A stretch of 64,000 nucleotides of DNA, taken from the NCBI GenBank assembly GCA_964596395.1, contig CAZQSY010000001.1:108091-172090 (forward strand), written 5' to 3'. The notes under the pieces are model-generated. The model was not told the DNA's origin, ran no database searches, and worked only from the letters and a program-made list of their open reading frames with translations. A program made the translations under genes and the position numbers. This DNA comes from an uncultured Candidatus Saccharibacteria bacterium. Its GTDB lineage: Bacteria; Patescibacteriota; Minisyncoccia; Phycocordibacterales; UBA9973. This document shows, in pieces, positions 15,586 to 24,673 of the stretch; position 1 is the first letter of the stretch, and each line of letters starts with the position of its first letter.

Positions 15586-17517
15586 TTACTCGGAAACCCT
15601 TCCCCCGTCAAACGGAAAGCCGGGGTCGTTCAACAATTTCGTGTCTAACCCCGTTCTTTTCACCTTTATGTCCACATTAGCAAAATCATCGTGCCCGGTC
15701 AAAACGGATTCATTGATAATGAGAGGGGTCGAACCGGTCTGAGACAGCGAGGGGATAAACTCAATCTGGAAAGAAACTTCTTTCCCCGCCGCGACAATGC
15801 CTGCGCCCTTGGGCACAGTACCGACGGTCCACAAGACCTCACGGGTAGAAGAATTATAAACCAAGTTTTCTCCGGACGGGACGGGAGAGCCGACCATTTT
15901 GACCCAAGGGGGTAAACTGGCGCGAACCGATACCTTAGAGACGCTGTTTGAAGTGTTGGTCAAAGACCAGGAGACGGTATAAGTCGTCTTCGATCCGGCT
16001 CGGGGTGGTATCGGGCCGGTATTCGTAAAAGGCCCCGAGTAGTAAAAAGCTTTGGTTGAAAGACCAACATCTGATTTAATCCTAATTATCCCTTTTTCAC
16101 TCCCGCTAAGTTCGGTAACCGAATCGCCAATATCAGGCCTTATACCGGTCGTAAAGACCTCTATCGAAATCTCGGGCGAAGATATTACCCCGCCCGAAGC
16201 GCTGTATAGAGGCAGAGCGTAGAAAGAAAAAGATACGTTACCTGCTTCGCCGGGCGAAACTTCGGCAAATTTGTTCCGCGAATTTTTATCCCAGATTATC
16301 ACGTCCTGCGACGAATCGTAGAAACCTTCGTTGGCCGAGATAGTCCTCTTGTCTAAAGCATTGCCGGATATTTTCGCCTTGATTTGCATATTTTTGATTT
16401 TCGTATCCAAATTGTTCTCCCATTGAATCTGCCCGACCACGCTGGTCCTAGAATCTACTGCGTATTCCCTGCTTGAGACGCCGTTCACGAATAAAACTGT
16501 CTCTACCGACGGCTTTTGTACCAGCAAGCTGTGTTCCGAGGAATTGAAGAAGGTGCCTATAGAGTACTTATCTCTCGGAGAGGGCGCACCGCTCGAAACC
16601 CGGAAAATTTTTTCTTCCCCTTCAAAGACATCCGTCATCCGGCCTGATATTTTTACTTCCCTTTCCACACCCGGTGCGAGATCCCCCAAAACCCAAACAT
16701 TGTTGCCAAAAGACGGAGCGGGATTTGCCTCAATAAACTGGAAACCGATAGGGTAATCAACCCGAAGCAATACGTCGGGAACACCTTTGCCGGAATTCAA
16801 GGAGGCCTTGATGTTGAGGTCTATATCCTGATTGGGAGTGGCCTCCCGCGGAGCGTCAACGAGCAAATTGACAGGGGTGGAATTTATGAAAATGTCAAAA
16901 AGTTTTTCTTTGACAAAAATCGCGTTTGACCCCTCCACTCGGTACTCTAATGTTATTTTTACTTCCCTCTTGCTTCCTTGTTCGCCGTACAAAATCAGCT
17001 TCACACTTTCGTTTTTCACTCCGCTGGCCGGTATGGTACCGAGTGACACGCGCACGCGTTCTTTGTCGTCGCTTCCGGACACTGCGGAATTTTTCGAATA
17101 TTCAAACACTACGTCCGCTAATTCAAGCGGGGTGTTGTTTTTGTTTGATACCTGCAAAAGAAGCGAGTACTCTTCACCGCCTTCGGTGAAGGCCGCGCTT
17201 TTCACCGAAATGTCTATATTCTCGTTCGATACGGTATTGCTCTCAGCGAAAAACATGTACGCCGCGTATCCCAAGGCTAAGGTAAAAAATATCAGCGAAA
17301 AAACAAAAAATTTTTTGAACATGGATGTCTGCATGAAAAATTGTTCCTTCACCTCGGGCTCACGAAGCCCTTCTTTCTGCCAAGAATCCGGCACTTCTTT
17401 GTTTTGAAAATGAGGAAAACTGTCGCGGTGCTCTACTCTCGTCTGGTAATTCTTGTTGAAAAGCTTAGCTTTAAGCTGTTCTATTTTATTCAGCTTGTCT
17501 TCGCTTAAAGGCGGCAT
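15586..17517 (-). CDS. Hypothetical membrane-anchored surface protein (large extracytoplasmic beta-rich domain)
   Basis: 643 aa; about 70-aa cytoplasmic N-terminus, one TM helix (FFVFSLIFFTLALGYAAYMFF), then Ig/CARDB-like repetitive extracellular region; no catalytic motif recognised. Confidence 0.5.
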   Translation of the reverse strand: MPPLSEDKLNKIEQLKAKLFNKNYQTRVEHRDSFPHFQNKEVPDSWQKEGLREPEVKEQFFMQTSMFKKFFVFSLIFFTLALGYAAYMFFAESNTVSNENIDISVKSAAFTEGGEEYSLLLQVSNKNNTPLELADVVFEYSKNSAVSGSDDKERVRVSLGTIPASGVKNESVKLILYGEQGSKREVKITLEYRVEGSNAIFVKEKLFDIFINSTPVNLLVDAPREATPNQDIDLNIKASLNSGKGVPDVLLRVDYPIGFQFIEANPAPSFGNNVWVLGDLAPGVEREVKISGRMTDVFEGEEKIFRVSSGAPSPRDKYSIGTFFNSSEHSLLVQKPSVETVLFVNGVSSREYAVDSRTSVVGQIQWENNLDTKIKNMQIKAKISGNALDKRTISANEGFYDSSQDVIIWDKNSRNKFAEVSPGEAGNVSFSFYALPLYSASGGVISSPEISIEVFTTGIRPDIGDSVTELSGSEKGIIRIKSDVGLSTKAFYYSGPFTNTGPIPPRAGSKTTYTVSWSLTNTSNSVSKVSVRASLPPWVKMVGSPVPSGENLVYNSSTREVLWTVGTVPKGAGIVAAGKEVSFQIEFIPSLSQTGSTPLIINESVLTGHDDFANVDIKVKRTGLDTKLLNDPGFPFDGGRVSE

Positions 17518-18157: not shown

Positions 18158-18817
18158 TTATATAACGAAATCCCGGAGTTCTTCTATTATTGGCTTGACT
18201 GTCTCGTCGTTTATATCTTCCGGCTTGATTTTGCACTTCGCGAAAATTTGCTTTTCAATGTTTCTCAGCGACTCACACAGGGGCTCAAAATTATCTGTCG
18301 CGATGGCGTGATTCAATTCTTTTATTCTTGCCAAGTATCTCTTTCTGCCTTCCTGAATACGCTCTCCCATAGAAACCACGCCGTGCGGGCTAACCCTCAT
18401 ATCTGAATAATTGGTAATTTTCTCCGCGAAAGACCCGCTTTGTTCAACCTCCGCGGCCTTAGAAAACCCCAGATTTTCAAGAAACATTCCGATCCCTCCC
18501 GAGACCCCCATCTCTTCAGCTATTAGTTTCGTGGCCAGATACTCGTCCGCGCCATATTTTCTCACATATTCATCTTTAACCTTTTGCCAATGTTCCAGCC
18601 CTTCCGGCTCCAGGAACTCCGGGAAGGCATTTAGATTGAACTTGATTATATTTCCCATATCATGAAGCAAACATGCCGTAACAATTTCCTGTCTTGGTAA
18701 GACCTCATCGAAATTTTCGCAAACCAAATACGCCACCGCCGCCACACGTAGCATGTGCTCCTGCAAACTAGGCATAATCTTATACTCTTCGTAAATTTCA
18801 GTGATTTTTCTTGCCAC
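18158..18817 (-). CDS. HD-domain phosphohydrolase
   Basis: H...HD signature (LQEHMLRVA ... LLHDMGNIIKF). Confidence 0.6.
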   Translation of the reverse strand: MARKITEIYEEYKIMPSLQEHMLRVAAVAYLVCENFDEVLPRQEIVTACLLHDMGNIIKFNLNAFPEFLEPEGLEHWQKVKDEYVRKYGADEYLATKLIAEEMGVSGGIGMFLENLGFSKAAEVEQSGSFAEKITNYSDMRVSPHGVVSMGERIQEGRKRYLARIKELNHAIATDNFEPLCESLRNIEKQIFAKCKIKPEDINDETVKPIIEELRDFVI

Positions 18818-21800
18818 TTATTTATTTTGGAGAATTTTTACCTTAAAAGCAAGGTCGCCTGCTTTTACTTCCTGGCCATCGTTTTTCTCCAGTTTCAAAT
18901 TTGACACAAGAACGGTCTTCAGCAGTTCCGGCTCAAATTTTTTCACCAGTTCTTCCCCATTCTTTTCTGTCTCAATATAAAGCGTTATCGAATCTTTCGG
19001 CGTAAGTCCCATATCTTTGCGCATGTCCTGCAAAGCCCGCACAAGCTCGCGAAAATCGCCTTCGGCTTTGAGTTCCGGAGTAATTTCCGTCCAGAGCAAG
19101 ATATTTTCGTCAATGTTGGTGCCCTCAACAACCTCTTTCACATTAAGTTCGTCTTTGACTAAATCAAGATATTCGCCGTCCAACTTTGAATCTTTCCATA
19201 TCTCTATTTTAGCTAACGGCTGCCTAACTTTTATTTTTTCATACTGCCGGCGCTCTAATCCGAGAGTGACTATCTTGCGAACTGTTTTCATTTTTTCCAA
19301 GACCTCTTTATCGCCAAACCGGAAAAACTTAAAACCTGCCTTAGGCCACTCGGCTAGATGCACACTTTCAGCTTCTTTTTCGTTTTTCAATTTCTGCCAG
19401 ATATCTTCAGCTGTAAACGGCGCGAAGGGAGCCAAGAGCTTCACTAAATTTTTCAAGACAAGATACAAGGTCTGTTTTGCTTCTTTGTCGCCTTCTTTCA
19501 TCCTATCCCTTGAGCGACGCAAATACCAAGTAGAAAGGTCTTCAATAAAATCCCGAACGCCCCGCACCGGCTCAAGTAATCTGTAATTTTCCAAACTTCG
19601 GGTAACAAGCTCGGTCAACTCGTCCATTCTCGCTAAAATCCATTTATCCAAAACATCGCCCGATTTCGGCTGGCTGTTTTTCTCGACCGAAGTGTCGCGG
19701 TAAAGTTCGTAGAACGCGAGAATATTGTAAAGCAGTCCGAAGACCTGCTGATGCAAGAGACGCACGGTTTTCTCGTCAAAATTTTTGGATTCGCCCGGCT
19801 GGTTGACTGAATACATCCATAGGCGAAGCGTATCAGCGCCGTATTTTTCTATCATTTCCCACGGGTCGACAATGTTGCCCAATGACTTCGACATTTTTTT
19901 GCCCTGCGCGTCGAGCAAATGCCCGAGGCAAATCACGTTTTTGTACGCCTTACCTCGGCCCATTAAAATCCCGACTGCGTGCAATGTGTAAAACCACCCG
20001 CGCGTCTGGTCTATGGCTTCAGAAATGTAATCGGCCGGGTATCCGGCACCTTCTACCCATTTCTTGCTTTCGAACGGGTAATGGTCCTGCGCGAAAGGCA
20101 TGGCACCCGAATCAAACCACACGTCCATCACTTCTTTCACTCGCTTTAAATCGCCCCCGCACTCGCAGACAACTTCCGTTTCGTCAATGTACGGTCTATG
20201 AAAATCAAGTTCGAAATCTTTATTGTGCGGAAGCGGAACAAAAGGAAACTCGGTAAATTCAGAGAATCCCACAGGCGGAATTGACGCTTCAAGTTCTCTG
20301 ATGGTTTCCTCGTCATTTAACCCAAGTGCACCAGCGACAATCAGTCTGCGTGGACCTTCGTGGGTAACGATGAGTATGTTTTCATTCTTGTATTTTTTGT
20401 CTATGTCGTAGAGAAAATTGGAAACTCTAAGTTTTACATCTCTCTGCGTTTCACTTCCATCCGTATCAAGAAAATATCTTTTTTCTCCGGTTTTATCCCC
20501 CCAAAATTCCCGCCATGTTCTACCCTTGAAACTGCCGGTGAATATCTCACGCAAACGTTTATCAAAAACAAGTTTGTCCTGCGGTAAGTCAAGCTCTTTC
20601 AAAATTATTTCCGCCGTCTCTTTGGTTCTCAAAAAATCTGAAGATATCATAAGAGTGATATCTTCTTTCCTCAGTTTCCGAGCCGAATCGAGTGCCTGCT
20701 TTTTACCCTCTTCGGTCAAATGGTCGTTGTCGCTTTCAATTTTGTTGCTTATGAGCCCCTTCAAATTCGCCTCGGCTTGCGCGTGTCGTATCGCGAAGTA
20801 TTTATTGCCGGATTTTTTGGTTTTTTCTTTCAGTTCTTCCAAACTGCCGATGACTTCTCTCTTATGGCATTTCTCGCATTCCCATACCGGAAGGGGCGTA
20901 CCCCAGTACCGCTCGCGCGAAATTGCCCAATCTTTAATCTCTCTTAGCCATTCGCCGAAGCGTCCTTCGCGTATGTGCGCCGGCTCCCAATTTATTTTCT
21001 CGTTTTCTTTTATGAGCTCATCCCTCAACTTTGACATTCCGATATACCAGGAATCGCGGGCGTAATATATGAGCGCGGTCTTACATCGCCAGCAGTACGG
21101 GTATGAGTGCTCGTATTTTTCTTTTTTCAAAAGTAGACCCCGGTGCGCCAAATCTTTGATAATCTCAACCGCGGTTTCTTCATCTCGGGTAAAACGCCCT
21201 TCCAGGAATCCTGTCCCCGACAGAAACTTTCCATCCAAACCTACCAGGTGATGCTTCGGCAGACCGATTTTCGTACCCAGCTCAAAGTCATCTTGGCCGT
21301 ACATCACGGCGGTATGCACCACACCGGTACCGTCTTCGGTCGTCACGAAATCAGCAGGATACACCTTGTATGCTTTTTCTAATTTAGGTTTCTCGCTTTC
21401 GGATATAACATTTTGCAAAAACGGATAAAGCGGCTCGTACTCAAGGCCGATTAAATTTTTTCCCTTTAGTTTTTCCAAAACCTGATACTCGCCTTGAATT
21501 TCCTGCAATCTTTTTTCCGCCAGTATTAAAACTTCATTTTCTTTTTTAATTTTTACGTAATCAATATCTTCCCCCACCGCGAGCGCGACGTTGCCCGGCA
21601 ACGTCCATGGTGTCGTCGTCCAAGCAAGAATGTAAAGCGGAGCCGCGGAATGATTTTCGAGTGTCTGGTTGAGGCCGTTCTTTGCCGAACTTTCTGCACG
21701 GCCGACCCGAGGACCGAGAAAATCATTCCGCGGCGAAGCGATAATTTTAAACTTTACGTAGACCGACAAGTCCTTCACATCCTGGTACCCCTGCGCGAGC

Positions 21801-22384
21801 TCGTGCGAAGAAAGAGCCGTGCCGCAACGCGGGCACCAGGGCACCACTTTGTAGTCCTTGTATAAAAGTCCCCGTTCGTTTACTTTCTTTACGATGTTCC
21901 AAAGCGATTCAATGTAGTCATTGTGATAAGTAACGTACGGATTCTCCTGGTCAACCCAATAGCCAATACGCTCGGTAAACTTGTTCCAGAATTCCAGATA
22001 CTCCCAAACGCTTTCTTTGCATTGCTGATTAAATTTCGCGATGCCATACTCCTCGATTGCTTTTTTTGAATCAAGCCCGAGCTTTTTCTCAACCTGCAGT
22101 TCCACCGGCAAGCCGTGCGTGTCCCACCCGCCTTTTCGGCGCACATGGCATCCGCGCATGGTCTTGTACCGAGGGATGGCATCTTTGAAAGCGCGAGCTT
22201 CGAGGTGGTGAATACCCGGCTTGCCATTGGCTGTCGGCGGGCCTTCATAAAAAACGAACTCCTTTCTGCCCTCGGTTTGCTTTACCGATTTTTCAAAAAT
22301 TTTATTCTCTTTCCAAAATTCCAAAATCCGTTCTTCACGTATCGTCGCTTCACATTTTTCGATTTTTTTGCTTTCCTCGTTCAT
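18818..22384 (-). CDS. ileS: Isoleucyl-tRNA synthetase with two insertions (31-aa repeat-element-derived segment; about 190-aa histidine phosphatase domain)
   Basis: HIGH-type motif PTANGKPGIHHLEAR, WTTTPWTLPGN (CP1 start), KMSKSLGNIVDP; 1188 aa, oversized because of the insertions. Confidence 0.95.
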   Translation of the reverse strand: MNEESKKIEKCEATIREERILEFWKENKIFEKSVKQTEGRKEFVFYEGPPTANGKPGIHHLEARAFKDAIPRYKTMRGCHVRRKGGWDTHGLPVELQVEKKLGLDSKKAIEEYGIAKFNQQCKESVWEYLEFWNKFTERIGYWVDQENPYVTYHNDYIESLWNIVKKVNERGLLYKDYKVVPWCPRCGTALSSHELAQGYQDVKDLSVYVKFKIIASPRNDFLGPRVGRAESSAKNGLNQTLENHSAAPLYILAWTTTPWTLPGNVALAVGEDIDYVKIKKENEVLILAEKRLQEIQGEYQVLEKLKGKNLIGLEYEPLYPFLQNVISESEKPKLEKAYKVYPADFVTTEDGTGVVHTAVMYGQDDFELGTKIGLPKHHLVGLDGKFLSGTGFLEGRFTRDEETAVEIIKDLAHRGLLLKKEKYEHSYPYCWRCKTALIYYARDSWYIGMSKLRDELIKENEKINWEPAHIREGRFGEWLREIKDWAISRERYWGTPLPVWECEKCHKREVIGSLEELKEKTKKSGNKYFAIRHAQAEANLKGLISNKIESDNDHLTEEGKKQALDSARKLRKEDITLMISSDFLRTKETAEIILKELDLPQDKLVFDKRLREIFTGSFKGRTWREFWGDKTGEKRYFLDTDGSETQRDVKLRVSNFLYDIDKKYKNENILIVTHEGPRRLIVAGALGLNDEETIRELEASIPPVGFSEFTEFPFVPLPHNKDFELDFHRPYIDETEVVCECGGDLKRVKEVMDVWFDSGAMPFAQDHYPFESKKWVEGAGYPADYISEAIDQTRGWFYTLHAVGILMGRGKAYKNVICLGHLLDAQGKKMSKSLGNIVDPWEMIEKYGADTLRLWMYSVNQPGESKNFDEKTVRLLHQQVFGLLYNILAFYELYRDTSVEKNSQPKSGDVLDKWILARMDELTELVTRSLENYRLLEPVRGVRDFIEDLSTWYLRRSRDRMKEGDKEAKQTLYLVLKNLVKLLAPFAPFTAEDIWQKLKNEKEAESVHLAEWPKAGFKFFRFGDKEVLEKMKTVRKIVTLGLERRQYEKIKVRQPLAKIEIWKDSKLDGEYLDLVKDELNVKEVVEGTNIDENILLWTEITPELKAEGDFRELVRALQDMRKDMGLTPKDSITLYIETEKNGEELVKKFEPELLKTVLVSNLKLEKNDGQEVKAGDLAFKVKILQNK
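21642..21734. repeat. Nested inverted-repeat element, copy C, inserted in frame (93 nt) in ileS
   Basis: Perfect 16-bp outer IR gccgcggaatgatttt (21642-21657) / aaaatcattccgcggc (21719-21734); core gagtgtctggttgag ... ggccgacccgaggaccgagaaaat matches the copy-A termini; on the minus strand it encodes SPRNDFLGPRVGRAESSAKNGLNQTLENHSAA. Confidence 0.65.
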
Positions 22385-22436
22385 GACTTTCTATTCTAAA
22401 ATTCTATAGAATATTAGAATACTTTTAGTGCTAAAA

Positions 22437-22600
22437 TTAAAAAACTCGTCCTCAAATTACAAAATAAATTTATAATTCAAGGACGAGTTTCCCCGTGGTA
22501 CCACCTTGTTTACTTCTCATTTTCCCGGGTTCTACTCTCCGAAAGGCAAGGCCTTTCGGGTTTCTTCCCGTAGCTCCAGAGTGATTACTCCTTCAACGCT
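22437..22600 (-). promoter_or_regulatory. T-box riboswitch leader (putative Ile specifier AUC) with intrinsic terminator, upstream of ileS
   Basis: Minus-strand RNA contains AACAAGGUGGUACCACGGGGAAA (T-box consensus GGUGGUACC), then the hairpin CUCGUCC...GGACGAG plus UUUUUU; a Stem-I-like region GGAGUAAUCACUCUGG has AUC followed by A; extended -10 TGTTATACT at about 22606-22614. Confidence 0.7.
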
Positions 22601-22620
22601 TGAAGAAAGTATAACACAAT

Positions 22621-24249
22621 TCACATCTTTTCCAATACCGGAATGCCCAAAACAGTAAGCCCGTTTTTCATAACGGTGGCAAAAGCATGGCTTAGGGCAA
22701 CTTTGTAGGGAGAGGACGGGTCTTCTGAATTAACGATTTGCTCTTTGCCGTAAAAGCTATTATACGCACGGGCAAGTTCTACCAAGTAACTAGCTATATA
22801 GTGGGGCGCGAATTCTTCCCCGGCTCTTAAGACAACCTCGGGAAAACGGTAAAGCAATCTTTCAACTTCCATCACCTGCCAATCTTGCGGAAGTCCGACT
22901 TCCGCAGAAATTTTATTTTCTTTCGCTTTTTCCAAAATAGAATTCGCGCGAGCGTAAGAGTACTGCAAATACACGCCCGAGTCGCCCTCGGTAGAAACCG
23001 ATTTTTCAATATCAAAAATTATATCCCCGCCCACGGCTTGTCGCAGAATCATGTACTTGATTGCGCCGATGGCCACCCGCTCGTCCCCTTTTACTTTTTC
23101 TTTGAGAAGATTAATCAAACTCTCGGCGGTAATAACATCGCCGGTGCGGGAACTCATCTTTCCCGTAGGTAGGCGAAGCATGCCGTGGGAAAGATGTTTT
23201 AGTTTTCCTTTGAGTTCTGGAAAAACCTCCCCGATGGCAACTTCGGTAACATCAAAAAAAGCATCCTGTTCGTTCGCGGTTATAGTTATTGACTGGTCGT
23301 AGGCGAATAAGTCCTTTTTGATTTTTGCCAGCCCGACTTCTTTGGCTTCGTAAGTGGGAAGTTTTTCGGAATTAAGAAATACTCTCGTATGCAAACCAAA
23401 TTTTTCACCCTCAAAAACAACAGCCCCTTCCGATTCTTTAAATACTTTACCTAGATTTTCTAAAACTAGTTTCTGTCCTATTTCCCCCGCTTCGCTTTCT
23501 AAAAAGTGGTGGTCGAAATGACTGTCTAGTTTTTTATAAATAGACTCAAAATATTCAAAAGAGGATTCCCTGCCAGCTTCAAATAAAAGGTTGATTTGTG
23601 AATCTGTGCCATCATAGATTTTTTTATTAATCTCAATGATTTCTTTCCTCGCACTTTCATCTTCCTCGTAAGCTTTATGACCATTGGCATACGCTACTAT
23701 AAAATTACCCGAGTGTTTCAAGAGATACCACACTGCTTTGGCCACATGCAAACCCTTGTCGCCATGATATGTGGCCGCCTTGACCTCCCCGCCACAAACT
23801 TTCACCAACCTCACTACCGCTTCGCCGATAGCATTGTTCATTAAATGCCCGATATGAAATTCTTTAAACGGGTTGGGCTGGGTGTGCTCTATAAAAAATT
23901 TCCTTCCGGAAAAAATATCACTCGCCCCAAAATTTCCATTTTCTGTAATTTTCTTTACGCTATCGGCAAAAAATTCTTTAGACAGATGAAAATTTATGAA
24001 CCCCGGCCCGGCAACTTGAATTTCCTGAATTTCGGGAAATCCACCCTGAGCTTGCCGAAGGGTCATTACGATTTTTTCCGCCAACTCTTTCGGATTCGTT
24101 TCTAGCTTTTTTGCCAGAACCATCGCTACGTTACTAGAGTAATCGCCGTTTTTGATATCTTCAGGGTGTTCAATGGCAAAATCCACATCTTCTTTTATTC
24201 CAAGATTTTTTAAAGCACTTTGTATTATTTCTTTTATCTTATCCTGCAT
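22621..24249 (-). CDS. argS: Arginyl-tRNA synthetase
   Basis: HIGH-type motif in FIEHTQPNPFKEFHIGHLMN; ArgRS N-terminal add-on and DALR-type anticodon-binding C-terminus; ORF track start 24273 overlaps dut, internal Met at 24249 chosen. Confidence 0.9.
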   Translation of the reverse strand: MQDKIKEIIQSALKNLGIKEDVDFAIEHPEDIKNGDYSSNVAMVLAKKLETNPKELAEKIVMTLRQAQGGFPEIQEIQVAGPGFINFHLSKEFFADSVKKITENGNFGASDIFSGRKFFIEHTQPNPFKEFHIGHLMNNAIGEAVVRLVKVCGGEVKAATYHGDKGLHVAKAVWYLLKHSGNFIVAYANGHKAYEEDESARKEIIEINKKIYDGTDSQINLLFEAGRESSFEYFESIYKKLDSHFDHHFLESEAGEIGQKLVLENLGKVFKESEGAVVFEGEKFGLHTRVFLNSEKLPTYEAKEVGLAKIKKDLFAYDQSITITANEQDAFFDVTEVAIGEVFPELKGKLKHLSHGMLRLPTGKMSSRTGDVITAESLINLLKEKVKGDERVAIGAIKYMILRQAVGGDIIFDIEKSVSTEGDSGVYLQYSYARANSILEKAKENKISAEVGLPQDWQVMEVERLLYRFPEVVLRAGEEFAPHYIASYLVELARAYNSFYGKEQIVNSEDPSSPYKVALSHAFATVMKNGLTVLGIPVLEKM

Positions 24250-24250
24250 T

Positions 24251-24673
24251 TCATTTTCTTCCGGTTGAACCAAACGCGCTCAAACCGCGAGAAGAATCTG
24301 AAAGTTCATCCGCTTCTTCAAGCTCGACAATTTCAACCGGATAAATTATCAACTGAGCCACTTTGTCTCCTATCTCGACAGTATAAGGCTTGTCGGATAA
24401 ATTAACTAGGTGAGTGTTGTACTCACCCCGAAACCCGGCATCGAAAACGCCGCCCATGGTGTGCAGTCCAGCTTTGGAAATACTGCTTTTATCTTTCACC
24501 ACAGCCGCGTAACCAGCCGGAAATTCAAGGGCGAAACCGTGGAAAAATCGATGGTGCCCCATCGGGGGGATGGTAACTTCTTCCATCGCATACATATCCA
24601 TACCTACATCTCCCGGATGGGCATATTTGGGCAACTTCGCGTCTTTATGCAATTTTTTTACTTTGATTTTCAT
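24251..24673 (-). CDS. dut: dUTP diphosphatase
   Basis: dUTPase motifs: AGYAAVVKDKSSISKAGL, GVFDAGFRGE, C-terminal RGLSAFGSTG. Confidence 0.85.
   Translation of the reverse strand: MKIKVKKLHKDAKLPKYAHPGDVGMDMYAMEEVTIPPMGHHRFFHGFALEFPAGYAAVVKDKSSISKAGLHTMGGVFDAGFRGEYNTHLVNLSDKPYTVEIGDKVAQLIIYPVEIVELEEADELSDSSRGLSAFGSTGRK

What the first reader, a model, noticed from the sequence alone, without database searches (positions are those of the whole stretch)
22437..22600. T-box leader (AUC specifier, GGUGGUACC box, intrinsic terminator) upstream of ileS
The 236-bp gap between argS and ileS encodes on the minus strand AACAAGGUGGUACCACGGGGAAA, a near-consensus T-box sequence. It sits directly 5' of the hairpin CUCGUCC...GGACGAG-UUUUUU. 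An upstream stem-loop GGAGUAAUCACUCUGG exposes AUC-A, the Ile codon plus the conserved purine. An extended -10 TGTTATACT sits right after the argS stop. T-box control of ileS is classic in Firmicutes, so this either constrains the taxonomic origin or extends T-box distribution to this lineage.
Basis: partly seen in the sequence, partly recalled or inferred. Interest (0 to 1): 0.55.

Follow-up and report, generated by a model that had tools for sequence, protein, structure and literature searches.

The report
Stripped-down tRNA-sensing ileS leader, CPR bacterium
The gap before the isoleucyl-tRNA synthetase gene holds a real tRNA-sensing "T-box" transcription switch, but an unusually stripped-down form from an uncultivated Paceibacteria-type (candidate phyla radiation, CPR) bacterium that lacks three parts thought important for such switches and that the standard RNA-family threshold misses.

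Summary
On the minus strand at 22601-22439, behind its own TG-extended -10 promoter, sit all the described elements. They are a K-turn hairpin with AUC-A in its terminal loop, a Stem II with S-turn motifs, a GAG ('RAG') motif, the T-box AAGGUGGUACCACG in a 7-nt-bulge antiterminator, and an overlapping 19-bp terminator with a U tract. ileS follows.

Rfam RF00230 gives only 38.6 bits against a gathering score of 93 (E = 5e-5 for the whole window). The shortfall arises because 74 Stem I model positions are missing.

The host is not a Firmicute. The IleS protein groups with Candidatus Paceibacterota/Nomurabacteria.

I found about 35 distinct homologous leaders in metagenomes:
- All with enough downstream sequence precede ileS. 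The one exception precedes valS and carries GUC instead of AUC.
- All with enough sequence carry a terminator.
- Helices covary: 18 of 23 pairs show double changes.
- None of 20 tested reaches the Rfam gathering score.

The window copy is the minimal form. It has an ultrashort Stem I, no IIA/B pseudoknot and no Stem III, yet it is transcriptional. The known ultrashort class is translational and actinobacterial.

Verdict: a real T-box and a new variant of a known kind. tRNA binding is untested.

The parts
22608..22635 (-). Promoter of the leader: -35 TTGGAA (22635-22630, inside the end of argS), 16-nt spacer, TG-extended -10 TGTTATACT (22616-22608). The predicted transcription start lies about 5-8 nt downstream, at the base of Stem I.
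   Evidence: 9 of 12 consensus matches, TG present. A -10-like hexamer ends 4-12 nt upstream of Stem I in 34 of 35 distinct family members, and 26 of these have a TG extension.
22571..22601 (-). Ultrashort Stem I. Base helix AGC/GCU (22600-22598 with 22574-22572). K-turn-like GA motif (GUU bulge, GA / GA). A 4-bp specifier hairpin GGAG/CUCU with the 6-nt terminal loop UAAUCA. There is no distal platform.
   Evidence: fold. (Rfam alignment deletes 74 Stem I model positions). (compensatory changes in base helix and hairpin).
22582..22585 (-). Specifier AUC (Ile codon, 22585-22583) followed by the conserved purine A (22582).
   Evidence: AUC plus A or G sits at the same loop position in every ileS-linked family member. 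GUC sits there in the valS-linked member L110.
22526..22570 (-). Stem II. Lower helix CGGG/CCCG, S-turn internal loop AAGAAA / (A)GAGUAGAA, upper 9-bp helix with CUU loop.
   Evidence: -18.4 kcal/mol, z = -3.1; the upper-helix pairs each show 12-22 double changes and 4-5 standard pair types. The same S-turn motifs occur in actinobacterial ileS T-boxes (L092, L108, L125).
22509..22525 (-). 17-nt single-stranded linker GGAAAAUGAGAAGUAAA. It contains the GAG ('RAG') motif at 22518-22516. No IIA/B pseudoknot/F-box and no Stem III fit here.
   Evidence: about 20 family members have 15-17-nt linkers, 12 have a Stem III inserted right after AUGAG, and 3 have a IIA/B pseudoknot with CCGUUA/CCGUCA. The role of RAG is taken from PMC11297988.
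22478..22508 (-). Antiterminator (discriminator). Helix A1 CAAGG/CCUUG, 7-nt T-box bulge UGGUACC (22503-22497; UGGU at 22503-22500 would pair with tRNA 3'-ACCA), helix A2 ACGGG/CUCGU with a GAAA loop.
   Evidence: -8.4 kcal/mol, MFE is the bulged structure. (Rfam alignment of the T-box region at posterior probability near 1). (A1 covaries).
22439..22487 (-). Intrinsic terminator: a 19-bp hairpin CUCGUCCUUGAAUUAUAAA-UUUAU-UUUGUAAUUUGAGGACGAG (22487-22445) followed by U6 (22444-22439). Its 5' arm is the 3' strand of the antiterminator.
   Evidence: -23.6 to -28 kcal/mol. An equivalent terminator is present in all 37 low-GC family members with enough downstream sequence and in none of the 5 actinobacterial hits.
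18818..22384 (-). Regulated gene ileS (1188 aa, type-2 IleS with an inserted histidine-phosphatase domain).
   Evidence: TIGR00392, 889 bits..
22621..24273 (-). Upstream gene argS. Its 3' end carries the -35 box of the leader promoter.

Best explanation
This is a functional, tRNA-Ile-responsive T-box attenuator controlling ileS in a Paceibacterota-type (CPR) bacterium. It belongs to a compact subclass.

Proposed mechanism:
1. Transcription starts at the base of Stem I from a dedicated TG-extended -10 promoter.
2. The nascent RNA folds into an ultrashort K-turn Stem I that shows AUC-A in its terminal loop, docked against the S-turn of Stem II. Together they read the GAU anticodon of tRNA-Ile.
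3. If the tRNA is uncharged, its 3'-ACCA pairs with UGGU in the T-box bulge. The conserved GAG of the linker assists. This stabilises the weak antiterminator (about -8 kcal/mol) against the much stronger terminator (about -24 to -28 kcal/mol), and RNA polymerase reads into ileS.
4. With charged tRNA, or with none, the terminator forms and transcription stops at the U tract.

The window copy is the minimal form of the family. It has no Stem I distal platform (so no tRNA-elbow contact), no Stem IIA/B pseudoknot and no Stem III.

Shown: the sequence elements, mutual exclusivity of the two folds, covariation, the specifier-to-gene correspondence, and terminator conservation.
Inferred: tRNA binding, charge discrimination, and the read-through outcome.
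For: - RF00230 is the only significant Rfam hit in the window. Its T-box/antiterminator part aligns at posterior probability near 1.
- The fold of 22602-22478 without the terminator's 3' arm gives exactly Stem I, Stem II and the bulged antiterminator. With the 3' arm, the terminator wins.
- A metagenome pattern scan found 44 loci. 39 are low-GC and CPR-like.
- Every locus with at least about 240 nt of downstream sequence encodes IleS, at 41-75% identity to the window's. The exception is L110, which encodes ValS and has GUC at the specifier position.
- All 37 low-GC members with enough sequence have a terminator overlapping the antiterminator. The terminator 3' arm covaries with the antiterminator strand: CUCGUCC/GGACGAG, CCCGUCC/GGACGGG, UUCGUCC/GGACGAA.
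- Covariation on 39 distinct rows: 95.5% of cells paired against 80.6% in shuffles, 18 of 23 pairs with double changes, 0 of 500 shuffles as good, and slid registers far worse.
- RNAalifold on a plain MAFFT alignment predicts the same structure independently.
- L134 was reached through an IleS look-up rather than through the DNA pattern. It has the leader (70.4 bits) with a different S-turn sequence.
- The promoter is conserved in 34 of 35 members.
- The GAG motif is retained at the position where the RAG motif contacts the tRNA 3' end in the M. tuberculosis ileS T-box.
Against: - No experiment exists, and no tRNA-Ile gene is in the window or in any fetched locus. The anticodon GAU and discriminator A73 are assumed from general bacterial tRNA-Ile knowledge.
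- Published work says transcriptional T-boxes generally need the long Stem I platform, and that deleting the IIA/B pseudoknot lowers tRNA binding about 1,200-fold (PMC7583486). On that basis this minimal RNA might bind tRNA poorly.
- The leader is absent from 7 of 10 close IleS orthologs looked up and from 10 more distant Patescibacteria loci. It is therefore dispensable.
- The S-turn and GGUGGUACC motifs were fixed by my search pattern. Their conservation in the 44 loci is not independent evidence.
- Alignment A3 was fitted to the model structure.
Confidence: 0.85

Rival explanations
1. An ordinary Firmicutes-type T-box. The leader would have the canonical architecture (long Stem I with platform, Stem II, IIA/B, Stem III) and the window would come from a Firmicute.
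For: T-box control of ileS is classic in Firmicutes. The T-box core sequence is near consensus.
Against: - The Rfam alignment deletes 74 Stem I positions, and the score is 38.6 against a gathering score of 93.
- Only 17 nt lie between Stem II and the antiterminator.
- The 120 best IleS homologs share a domain insertion. Nearly all that carry a source name are named Paceibacterota, Nomurabacteria, Minisyncoccia or Patescibacteria.
Confidence: 0.02
2. A decaying relic. The leader descends from a T-box but has lost the tRNA-binding parts. It now acts only as a constitutive promoter plus a leaky terminator, or as the argS terminator, with no tRNA response.
For: - Three modules reported as important are missing: the platform, the pseudoknot and Stem III.
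- The leader has been lost outright in most close relatives.
Against: - About 20 distinct leaders share the same minimal architecture, with compensatory changes in every helix.
- The specifier AUC plus purine, the UGGU bulge and the GAG motif are invariant, while flanking stems vary.
- The codon tracks the downstream synthetase, GUC with valS.
- Relatives without the leader have argS and ileS 32-35 nt apart with no terminator. A stand-alone argS terminator is therefore not needed.
Confidence: 0.05
3. A T-box that needs help. The RNA senses tRNA-Ile, but the missing platform, pseudoknot and Stem III are replaced by something else. Candidates are a protein factor, slow or paused RNA polymerase, or the unusually long terminator hairpin, which may buy time for tRNA binding.
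For: - The literature holds that fast tRNA capture by the platform is needed for co-transcriptional decisions.
- Family terminators are uniformly long (42-49 nt) with U-rich apical loops. About 60 nt separate the T-box bulge from the U tract.
Against: No candidate factor is encoded next to the leader. The kinetic-window idea is inference only. This rival refines the best explanation rather than replacing it.
Confidence: 0.08

Closest known systems
Ultrashort (US) ileS T-box riboswitches of Actinobacteria (Mycobacterium tuberculosis / M. smegmatis / Nocardia farcinica; Sherwood, Grundy and Henkin 2015; structures 2019)
   Same: - Regulates ileS.
- The specifier AUC sits in the terminal loop of a very short K-turn Stem I, with no elbow-binding platform.
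- Stem II has the AAGAA / GUAGAA S-turn. The motifs are identical in some actinobacterial hits.
- A GAG 'RAG' motif precedes the discriminator.
- Same UGGUACC bulge.
   Different: - The known class is described as translational, using an SD sequestrator. The 5 actinobacterial hits here indeed lack terminators. The window leader and all 37 low-GC relatives with enough sequence end in an intrinsic terminator.
- The actinobacterial RNAs have the IIA/B pseudoknot with its F-box, reported as required for tRNA binding, and a Stem III. The window leader has neither.
- The host is a Paceibacterota-type CPR bacterium, not an actinobacterium.
Canonical transcriptional T-box (Rfam RF00230; e.g. Bacillus subtilis tyrS)
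   Same: - Antiterminator/terminator competition.
- T-box sequence and 7-nt bulge.
- K-turn at the Stem I base.
- Specifier followed by a purine.
- Stem II S-turn.
- Control of an aminoacyl-tRNA synthetase gene.
   Different: - Lacks the Stem I distal region (74 model positions deleted), the IIA/B pseudoknot and Stem III.
- Scores 38.6 bits against a gathering score of 93.
- None of 20 family members reaches the gathering score.
glyQS T-box (the minimal transcriptional T-box studied so far)
   Same: A naturally reduced transcriptional T-box that lacks the IIA/B pseudoknot.
   Different: glyQS dispenses with Stem II but keeps the long Stem I with its elbow-binding platform, and keeps Stem III (own knowledge of the glyQS structures). 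The window leader does the opposite: it keeps Stem II and drops the platform and Stem III.

Membership tests
T-box leader (RF00230 in the broad sense) | Specifier codon in the Stem I loop, matching the amino acid of the regulated gene and followed by a purine | tested here: met
   AUC-A at 22585-22582 upstream of ileS. AUC plus A or G in all ileS-linked relatives. GUC in the valS-linked relative L110.
T-box leader (RF00230 in the broad sense) | Conserved T-box sequence forming a 7-nt bulge with UGGN between helices A1 and A2 | tested here: met
   AAGGUGGUACCACG at 22507-22494. The MFE of 22508-22478 is the bulged antiterminator. The Rfam alignment of this part has posterior probability near 1.
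T-box leader (RF00230 in the broad sense) | Mutually exclusive antiterminator and intrinsic terminator | tested here: met
   CUCGUCCUUG is shared by both structures. Stabilities are -8.4 and -28 kcal/mol. This is conserved and covaries in 37 of 37 low-GC relatives with enough sequence.
T-box leader (RF00230 in the broad sense) | K-turn (GA motif) at the base of Stem I | tested here: met
   AGC-GUU-GA...GA-GCU. G9, A10, G27 and A28 of the alignment are invariant, while the flanking base helix covaries. This is a sequence-level test only.
T-box leader (RF00230 in the broad sense) | Long Stem I with AG bulge and distal loop platform (interdigitated T-loops) that stacks on the tRNA elbow | tested here: not met
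   Stem I is 31 nt long, with the specifier in the terminal loop. 74 model positions are deleted in the Rfam alignment.
T-box leader (RF00230 in the broad sense) | Stem II with S-turn | tested here: met
   AAGAAA / GAGUAGAA internal loop between two covarying helices.
T-box leader (RF00230 in the broad sense) | Stem IIA/B pseudoknot with F-box (CCGUYA) | tested here: not met
   Only 17 unpaired nt lie between Stem II and helix A1, and they contain no F-box. Relatives L096, L106 and L130 do have ACGGG...CCCGU(U/C/A)A pseudoknots.
T-box leader (RF00230 in the broad sense) | Stem III 5' of the antiterminator | tested here: not met
   Absent from the window and from about 20 relatives. Present in 12 relatives as an insertion right after AUGAG.
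T-box leader (RF00230 in the broad sense) | Score at or above Rfam's gathering threshold | tested here: not met
   38.6 bits against 93. 0 of 20 relatives pass.
T-box leader (RF00230 in the broad sense) | Binds the cognate uncharged tRNA and discriminates against the charged form | not testable with these tools
   No tRNA-Ile gene is present in the window or in the fetched loci. This needs biochemistry.
Ultrashort (US) ileS T-box class (Actinobacteria) | Stem I replaced by a short helix with the specifier in the terminal loop; regulates ileS | tested here: met
   Class definition taken from bioRxiv 10.1101/2023.02.28.530422.
Ultrashort (US) ileS T-box class (Actinobacteria) | Translational control through an SD sequestrator / antisequestrator | tested here: not met
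   The leader ends in a hairpin plus U6. The ileS start lies 55 nt beyond the U tract and is not part of the switch.
Ultrashort (US) ileS T-box class (Actinobacteria) | Stem IIA/B pseudoknot acting as a hinge for Stem I-Stem II docking | tested here: not met
   See above.

The most novel reading that the evidence does not exclude
This is the smallest natural T-box architecture, about 125 nt to the end of the antiterminator. It would make a co-transcriptional tRNA-charge decision using only the anticodon contact (ultrashort Stem I plus the Stem II S-turn) and the NCCA contact. It would do so without the elbow platform, the IIA/B pseudoknot or Stem III. It defines a subclass, apparently undescribed in the literature searched here, that is spread patchily through Paceibacteria (CPR) ileS genes and at least one valS gene, and that Rfam-threshold annotation misses.
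Probability: 0.55. Interest if true: 0.75.

Novelty: new variant of a known kind. Interest (0 to 1): 0.6.

Why it matters
T-box work currently holds three views (PMC7583486, PMC11297988):
- Transcriptional T-boxes need the long Stem I platform to capture tRNA fast enough.
- Ultrashort Stem I goes with translational control.
- The IIA/B pseudoknot is required for tRNA binding by ultrashort ileS T-boxes.

A conserved, covarying family that pairs an ultrashort Stem I with an intrinsic terminator does not fit those views. Many members lack the pseudoknot and Stem III as well. If such RNAs work, the family offers:
- a natural minimal scaffold for structural and kinetic work, and for engineering tRNA-responsive switches;
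- a built-in series of relatives with and without each module, allowing direct comparison.

It also shows that at least some Paceibacteria-type CPR genomes carry cis-regulatory RNA for an aminoacyl-tRNA synthetase gene. And it shows that Rfam gathering-threshold annotation under-reports T-boxes in these genomes: 0 of 21 were detected here.

Tried and rejected
- **Rfam at gathering threshold.** No hit in the window and none in 20 family loci. Only the E-value mode recovers the T-box.
- **GTDB genome scan with an IleS alignment.** None has the leader. This scan is therefore a poor census.
- **tRNA search for tRNA-Ile(GAU)/A73.** Nothing in the window. In 46 loci only two tRNA-Ser genes turned up.
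- **Replacement pseudoknot in the minimal linker.** I looked by eye for pairing of GAGAAGU/AAAC with the 5' flank (CUUC in the window, UUUAC in L082), with the Stem II loop and with the Stem I 3' strand. None is conserved between members. The 5' flank also lies at or upstream of the predicted transcription start. Rejected.
- **U34-A39 closing pair predicted by RNAfold in the specifier loop.** It is not conserved in relatives. I take the loop to be 6 nt.
- **Literature.** No paper in the searchable library combines T-box with Candidate Phyla Radiation, Patescibacteria or Parcubacteria. Sherwood et al. 2015 is not held. I could not check whether it mentions rare terminator-type ultrashort leaders.
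- **Translational sequestration.** Considered and rejected for the window. The ileS start codon is 55 nt past the U tract.

Full report
**Observation.**
- A TG-extended -10, TGTTATACT (22616-22608), with a -35 TTGGAA 16 nt upstream.
- GGAGUAAUCACUCUGG, with AUC at 22585-22583 and A at 22582.
- AACAAGGUGGUACCACGGGGAAA, with UGGU at 22503-22500.
- The hairpin CUCGUCC...GGACGAG (22487-22445) followed by U6 (22444-22439).

The two flanking genes are argS and ileS by NCBIfam.

The region is far from random.
- The whole leader folds with z = -6.6.
- The terminator folds at -28 kcal/mol with z = -10.5.
- RF00230 is the only Rfam family reaching E <= 0.01 in the 64-kb window (38.6 bits, E = 5e-5; 3.5e-7 locally).

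At Rfam's gathering score (93 bits) there is no hit. It passes only as a sub-threshold hit.

**Anatomy.** The Rfam alignment explains the low score. The T-box/antiterminator part aligns almost perfectly, but 74 model positions of Stem I are replaced by 4 nt.

Folding 22602-22478, the leader without the terminator's 3' arm, gives four elements.
- A 31-nt Stem I made of a 3-bp base helix, a K-turn-like GUU/GA...GA motif and a 4-bp hairpin. Its terminal loop UAAUCA carries the specifier.
- A Stem II (22570-22526) with an AAGAAA / GAGUAGAA internal loop, the S-turn motifs.
- A 17-nt unpaired linker, GGAAAAUGAGAAGUAAA.
- The antiterminator CAAGG-UGGUACC-ACGGG-GAAA-CUCGU-CCUUG.

With the downstream sequence included, the MFE switches to the terminator, which uses CUCGUCCUUG as its 5' arm. 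The stabilities are about -8.4 kcal/mol for the antiterminator and -24 to -28 kcal/mol for the terminator. The default state is therefore 'off', as in T-boxes generally.

Three standard modules are missing.
- The Stem I distal platform.
- The Stem IIA/B pseudoknot with its F-box.
- Stem III.

**Whose genome.** The 120 best homologs of the IleS protein (62-70% identity) share an inserted PF00300 histidine-phosphatase domain. Nearly all those that carry a source name are called Candidatus Paceibacterota, Pacebacteria, Nomurabacteria, Minisyncoccia or Patescibacteria group. The exceptions are generic 'bacterium' labels and one 'Burkholderiales bacterium', probably a mis-binned contig. NCBI now files Paceibacterota under Minisyncoccota. 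From my own knowledge, this is part of the Candidate Phyla Radiation. The argS-ileS-recO gene order is shared with these relatives. The window is therefore not from a Firmicute.

**Relatives of the leader.** I looked up ten close IleS orthologs.
- Three have the leader: the window, P0005 (L082) and P0073 (L134).
- In five others argS and ileS are only 32-35 nt apart.
- In two others a different gene intervenes.
- Ten more distant Patescibacteria loci from GTDB lack it.

I then scanned the metagenome collection with an architecture pattern: Stem II S-turn 5' strand, gap, S-turn 3' strand, gap of 15-45, GGUGGUACC. It returned 44 loci. Of these, 39 are low-GC (0.30-0.49) and 5 are high-GC (0.70-0.72) actinobacterial-type ileS leaders.

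Every locus with at least about 240 nt downstream encodes IleS. The single exception is L110. Its downstream gene is valS (427 bits to the valS model) and its loop reads GUC where the others read AUC. This natural specifier swap is the strongest single argument that the loop triplet is read as a codon.

**Conservation and covariation.** A covariance model built from ten minimal-type leaders aligned 44 sequences, 39 of them distinct. On that alignment:
- 95.5% of cells form standard pairs, against 80.6% in shuffles.
- 18 of 23 pairs show changes on both sides.
- No shuffle in 500 reaches any of the five measures.
- Sliding the 3' partners by 1-3 columns drops pairing to 27-58%.

The alignment is fitted to the model. 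As an independent check, RNAalifold on the plain MAFFT alignment of ten sequences predicts the same helices, 9 of them with compensatory changes.

Caveat: GGAAGAAA, GAGUAGAA and GGUGGUACC were imposed by my pattern and cannot be counted as conserved. L134 was reached through the protein and has AAAGUAGAA. This shows the family is not an artefact of the pattern.

Features the pattern did not impose are nevertheless conserved.
- The specifier AUC plus purine.
- The K-turn G and A residues.
- AUGAG in the linker.
- ACCACG...CUCGUCC.
- A -10 box 4-12 nt upstream of Stem I in 34 of 35 distinct upstream regions, TG-extended in 26. This places the transcription start at the base of Stem I.

**Transcriptional, not translational.** All 37 low-GC leaders with enough downstream sequence have a 42-49-nt hairpin (one has 25 nt) followed by 5-8 U. 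The hairpin's 5' arm is the antiterminator's 3' strand. The 3' arm covaries with it: CUCGUCC/GGACGAG, CCCGUCC/GGACGGG, UUCGUCC/GGACGAA, AUCGUCC/GGACGAU. The five actinobacterial hits have no terminator, and their leaders run straight into the start codon region. That fits the published translational class.

**Variants within the family.**
- About 20 distinct leaders have the window's minimal layout, with a 15-17-nt linker.
- Twelve have a Stem III inserted immediately after AUGAG.
- Three (L096, L106, L130) have a classical IIA/B pseudoknot with an F-box-like sequence (CCGUUA, CCGUCA or CCGUAA).
- Four have a short distal stem inside Stem I.
- Five replace the K-turn hairpin with two hairpins.
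- Several have 26-38-nt insertions on helix A2.

The minimal form thus looks like the end of a reduction series. The modules it lacks exist in relatives.

**Comparison with what is known.** The closest described class is the 'ultrashort' ileS T-box of Actinobacteria. That class has a short Stem I with the specifier in the terminal loop, no elbow contact, a Stem II S-turn, a IIA/B pseudoknot and Stem III. [quoted passage not shown]

Reviews make three relevant statements.
- Deleting the IIA/B pseudoknot reduces tRNA binding about 1,200-fold.
- The pseudoknot-linker interactions and the RAG motif are important for both binding steps.

The window leader keeps the RAG-equivalent GAG (22518-22516) and the S-turn. 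It combines an ultrashort Stem I with a terminator and lacks the pseudoknot and Stem III. It therefore works like a T-box and belongs to the T-box superfamily. It fails defining features both of the Rfam model (platform, IIA/B, Stem III, gathering score) and of the published ultrashort class (translational output, pseudoknot).

I found no paper in the searchable library that links T-boxes to CPR, Patescibacteria or Parcubacteria. TBDB drew its translational set from Actinobacteria reference genomes. None of 20 family members passes the Rfam gathering score. Absence from this library is not proof of novelty, and I could not read Sherwood et al. 2015.

**Mechanism and confidence.** I put 0.85 on a functional tRNA-Ile-sensing transcription attenuator.
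- Shown: the structural logic, the covariation, the codon-to-gene correspondence, and the conserved promoter and terminator.
- Inferred: tRNA binding, charge discrimination and the in vivo outcome.

No tRNA-Ile gene was available for checking the GAU anticodon or A73. How tRNA is captured in time without the platform is open. The uniformly long terminator hairpins with U-rich loops, and the roughly 60 nt between the T-box bulge and the U tract, suggest a lengthened decision window. That is speculation.

**Verdict.** The taxonomic inference resolves towards 'extends T-box distribution'. The added value is that this is a compact, transcriptional, ultrashort-Stem-I T-box subclass in Paceibacteria-type CPR bacteria, and the window copy is its most reduced form. 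It is a new variant of a known kind, of clear interest to riboswitch specialists and of modest interest beyond.

Noticed in passing
window 18818-22384 (-), IleS residues ~528-700: IleS carries an inserted histidine-phosphatase / phosphoglycerate-mutase-like domain (PF00300) between the two halves of the catalytic core. The same insertion is present in all 120 best homologs, which are Paceibacterota/Nomurabacteria-type. Its function is unknown.
   Followed up: partly
window 18158-18817 (-); homologs P0028, P0049, P0079: The gene right after ileS gives a weak HD-domain (PF01966) hit in the identical locus L081. Three IleS homologs of 1317-1365 aa carry an HD domain fused to IleS. This may be a fusion/fission pair linking the HD protein functionally to IleS.
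   Followed up: no
window 22393-22422 (-): An AT-rich, near-perfect 30-nt palindrome/hairpin (UUCUAAUAUUCUAUAGAAUUUUAGAA core) lies between the terminator and the ileS start codon. It is not present at the same place in L082. It could be an operator, a second RNA hairpin near the ribosome-binding site, or chance in AT-rich DNA.
   Followed up: partly
L110:1118-1251 (-): The same compact leader type with a GUC specifier and its own terminator sits upstream of valS. The subclass is therefore not restricted to ileS.
   Followed up: yes
L104, L105, L114, L115, L121; L101, L111, L118, L119: These are Stem I sub-variants. In the first group the K-turn hairpin is replaced by a 6-bp specifier hairpin with a 7-nt anticodon-like loop plus a second hairpin. 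In the second group a short distal stem is inserted 5' of the specifier. Several of these also have 26-38-nt insertions on helix A2.
   Followed up: partly
L096, L106/L109, L130: These family members retain a classical Stem IIA/B pseudoknot with an F-box-like sequence (CCGUUA, CCGUCA or CCGUAA) but have no Stem III. They are useful natural comparators for the pseudoknot-less window form.
   Followed up: partly
family terminators, e.g. window 22445-22487; L089-L132: Terminator hairpins are uniformly long (42-49 nt, 19-21 bp, -20 to -29.5 kcal/mol). They have AU-rich upper stems and often U-rich apical loops. This may provide a pause or an extended time window.
   Followed up: no
window 15586-17517 (-) and orthologs in L082, L084, L086, L088: A conserved 643-aa protein downstream of recO has no NCBIfam hit and only a faint CLIPPER Pfam hint in relatives. 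It is syntenic across Paceibacteria loci.
   Followed up: no
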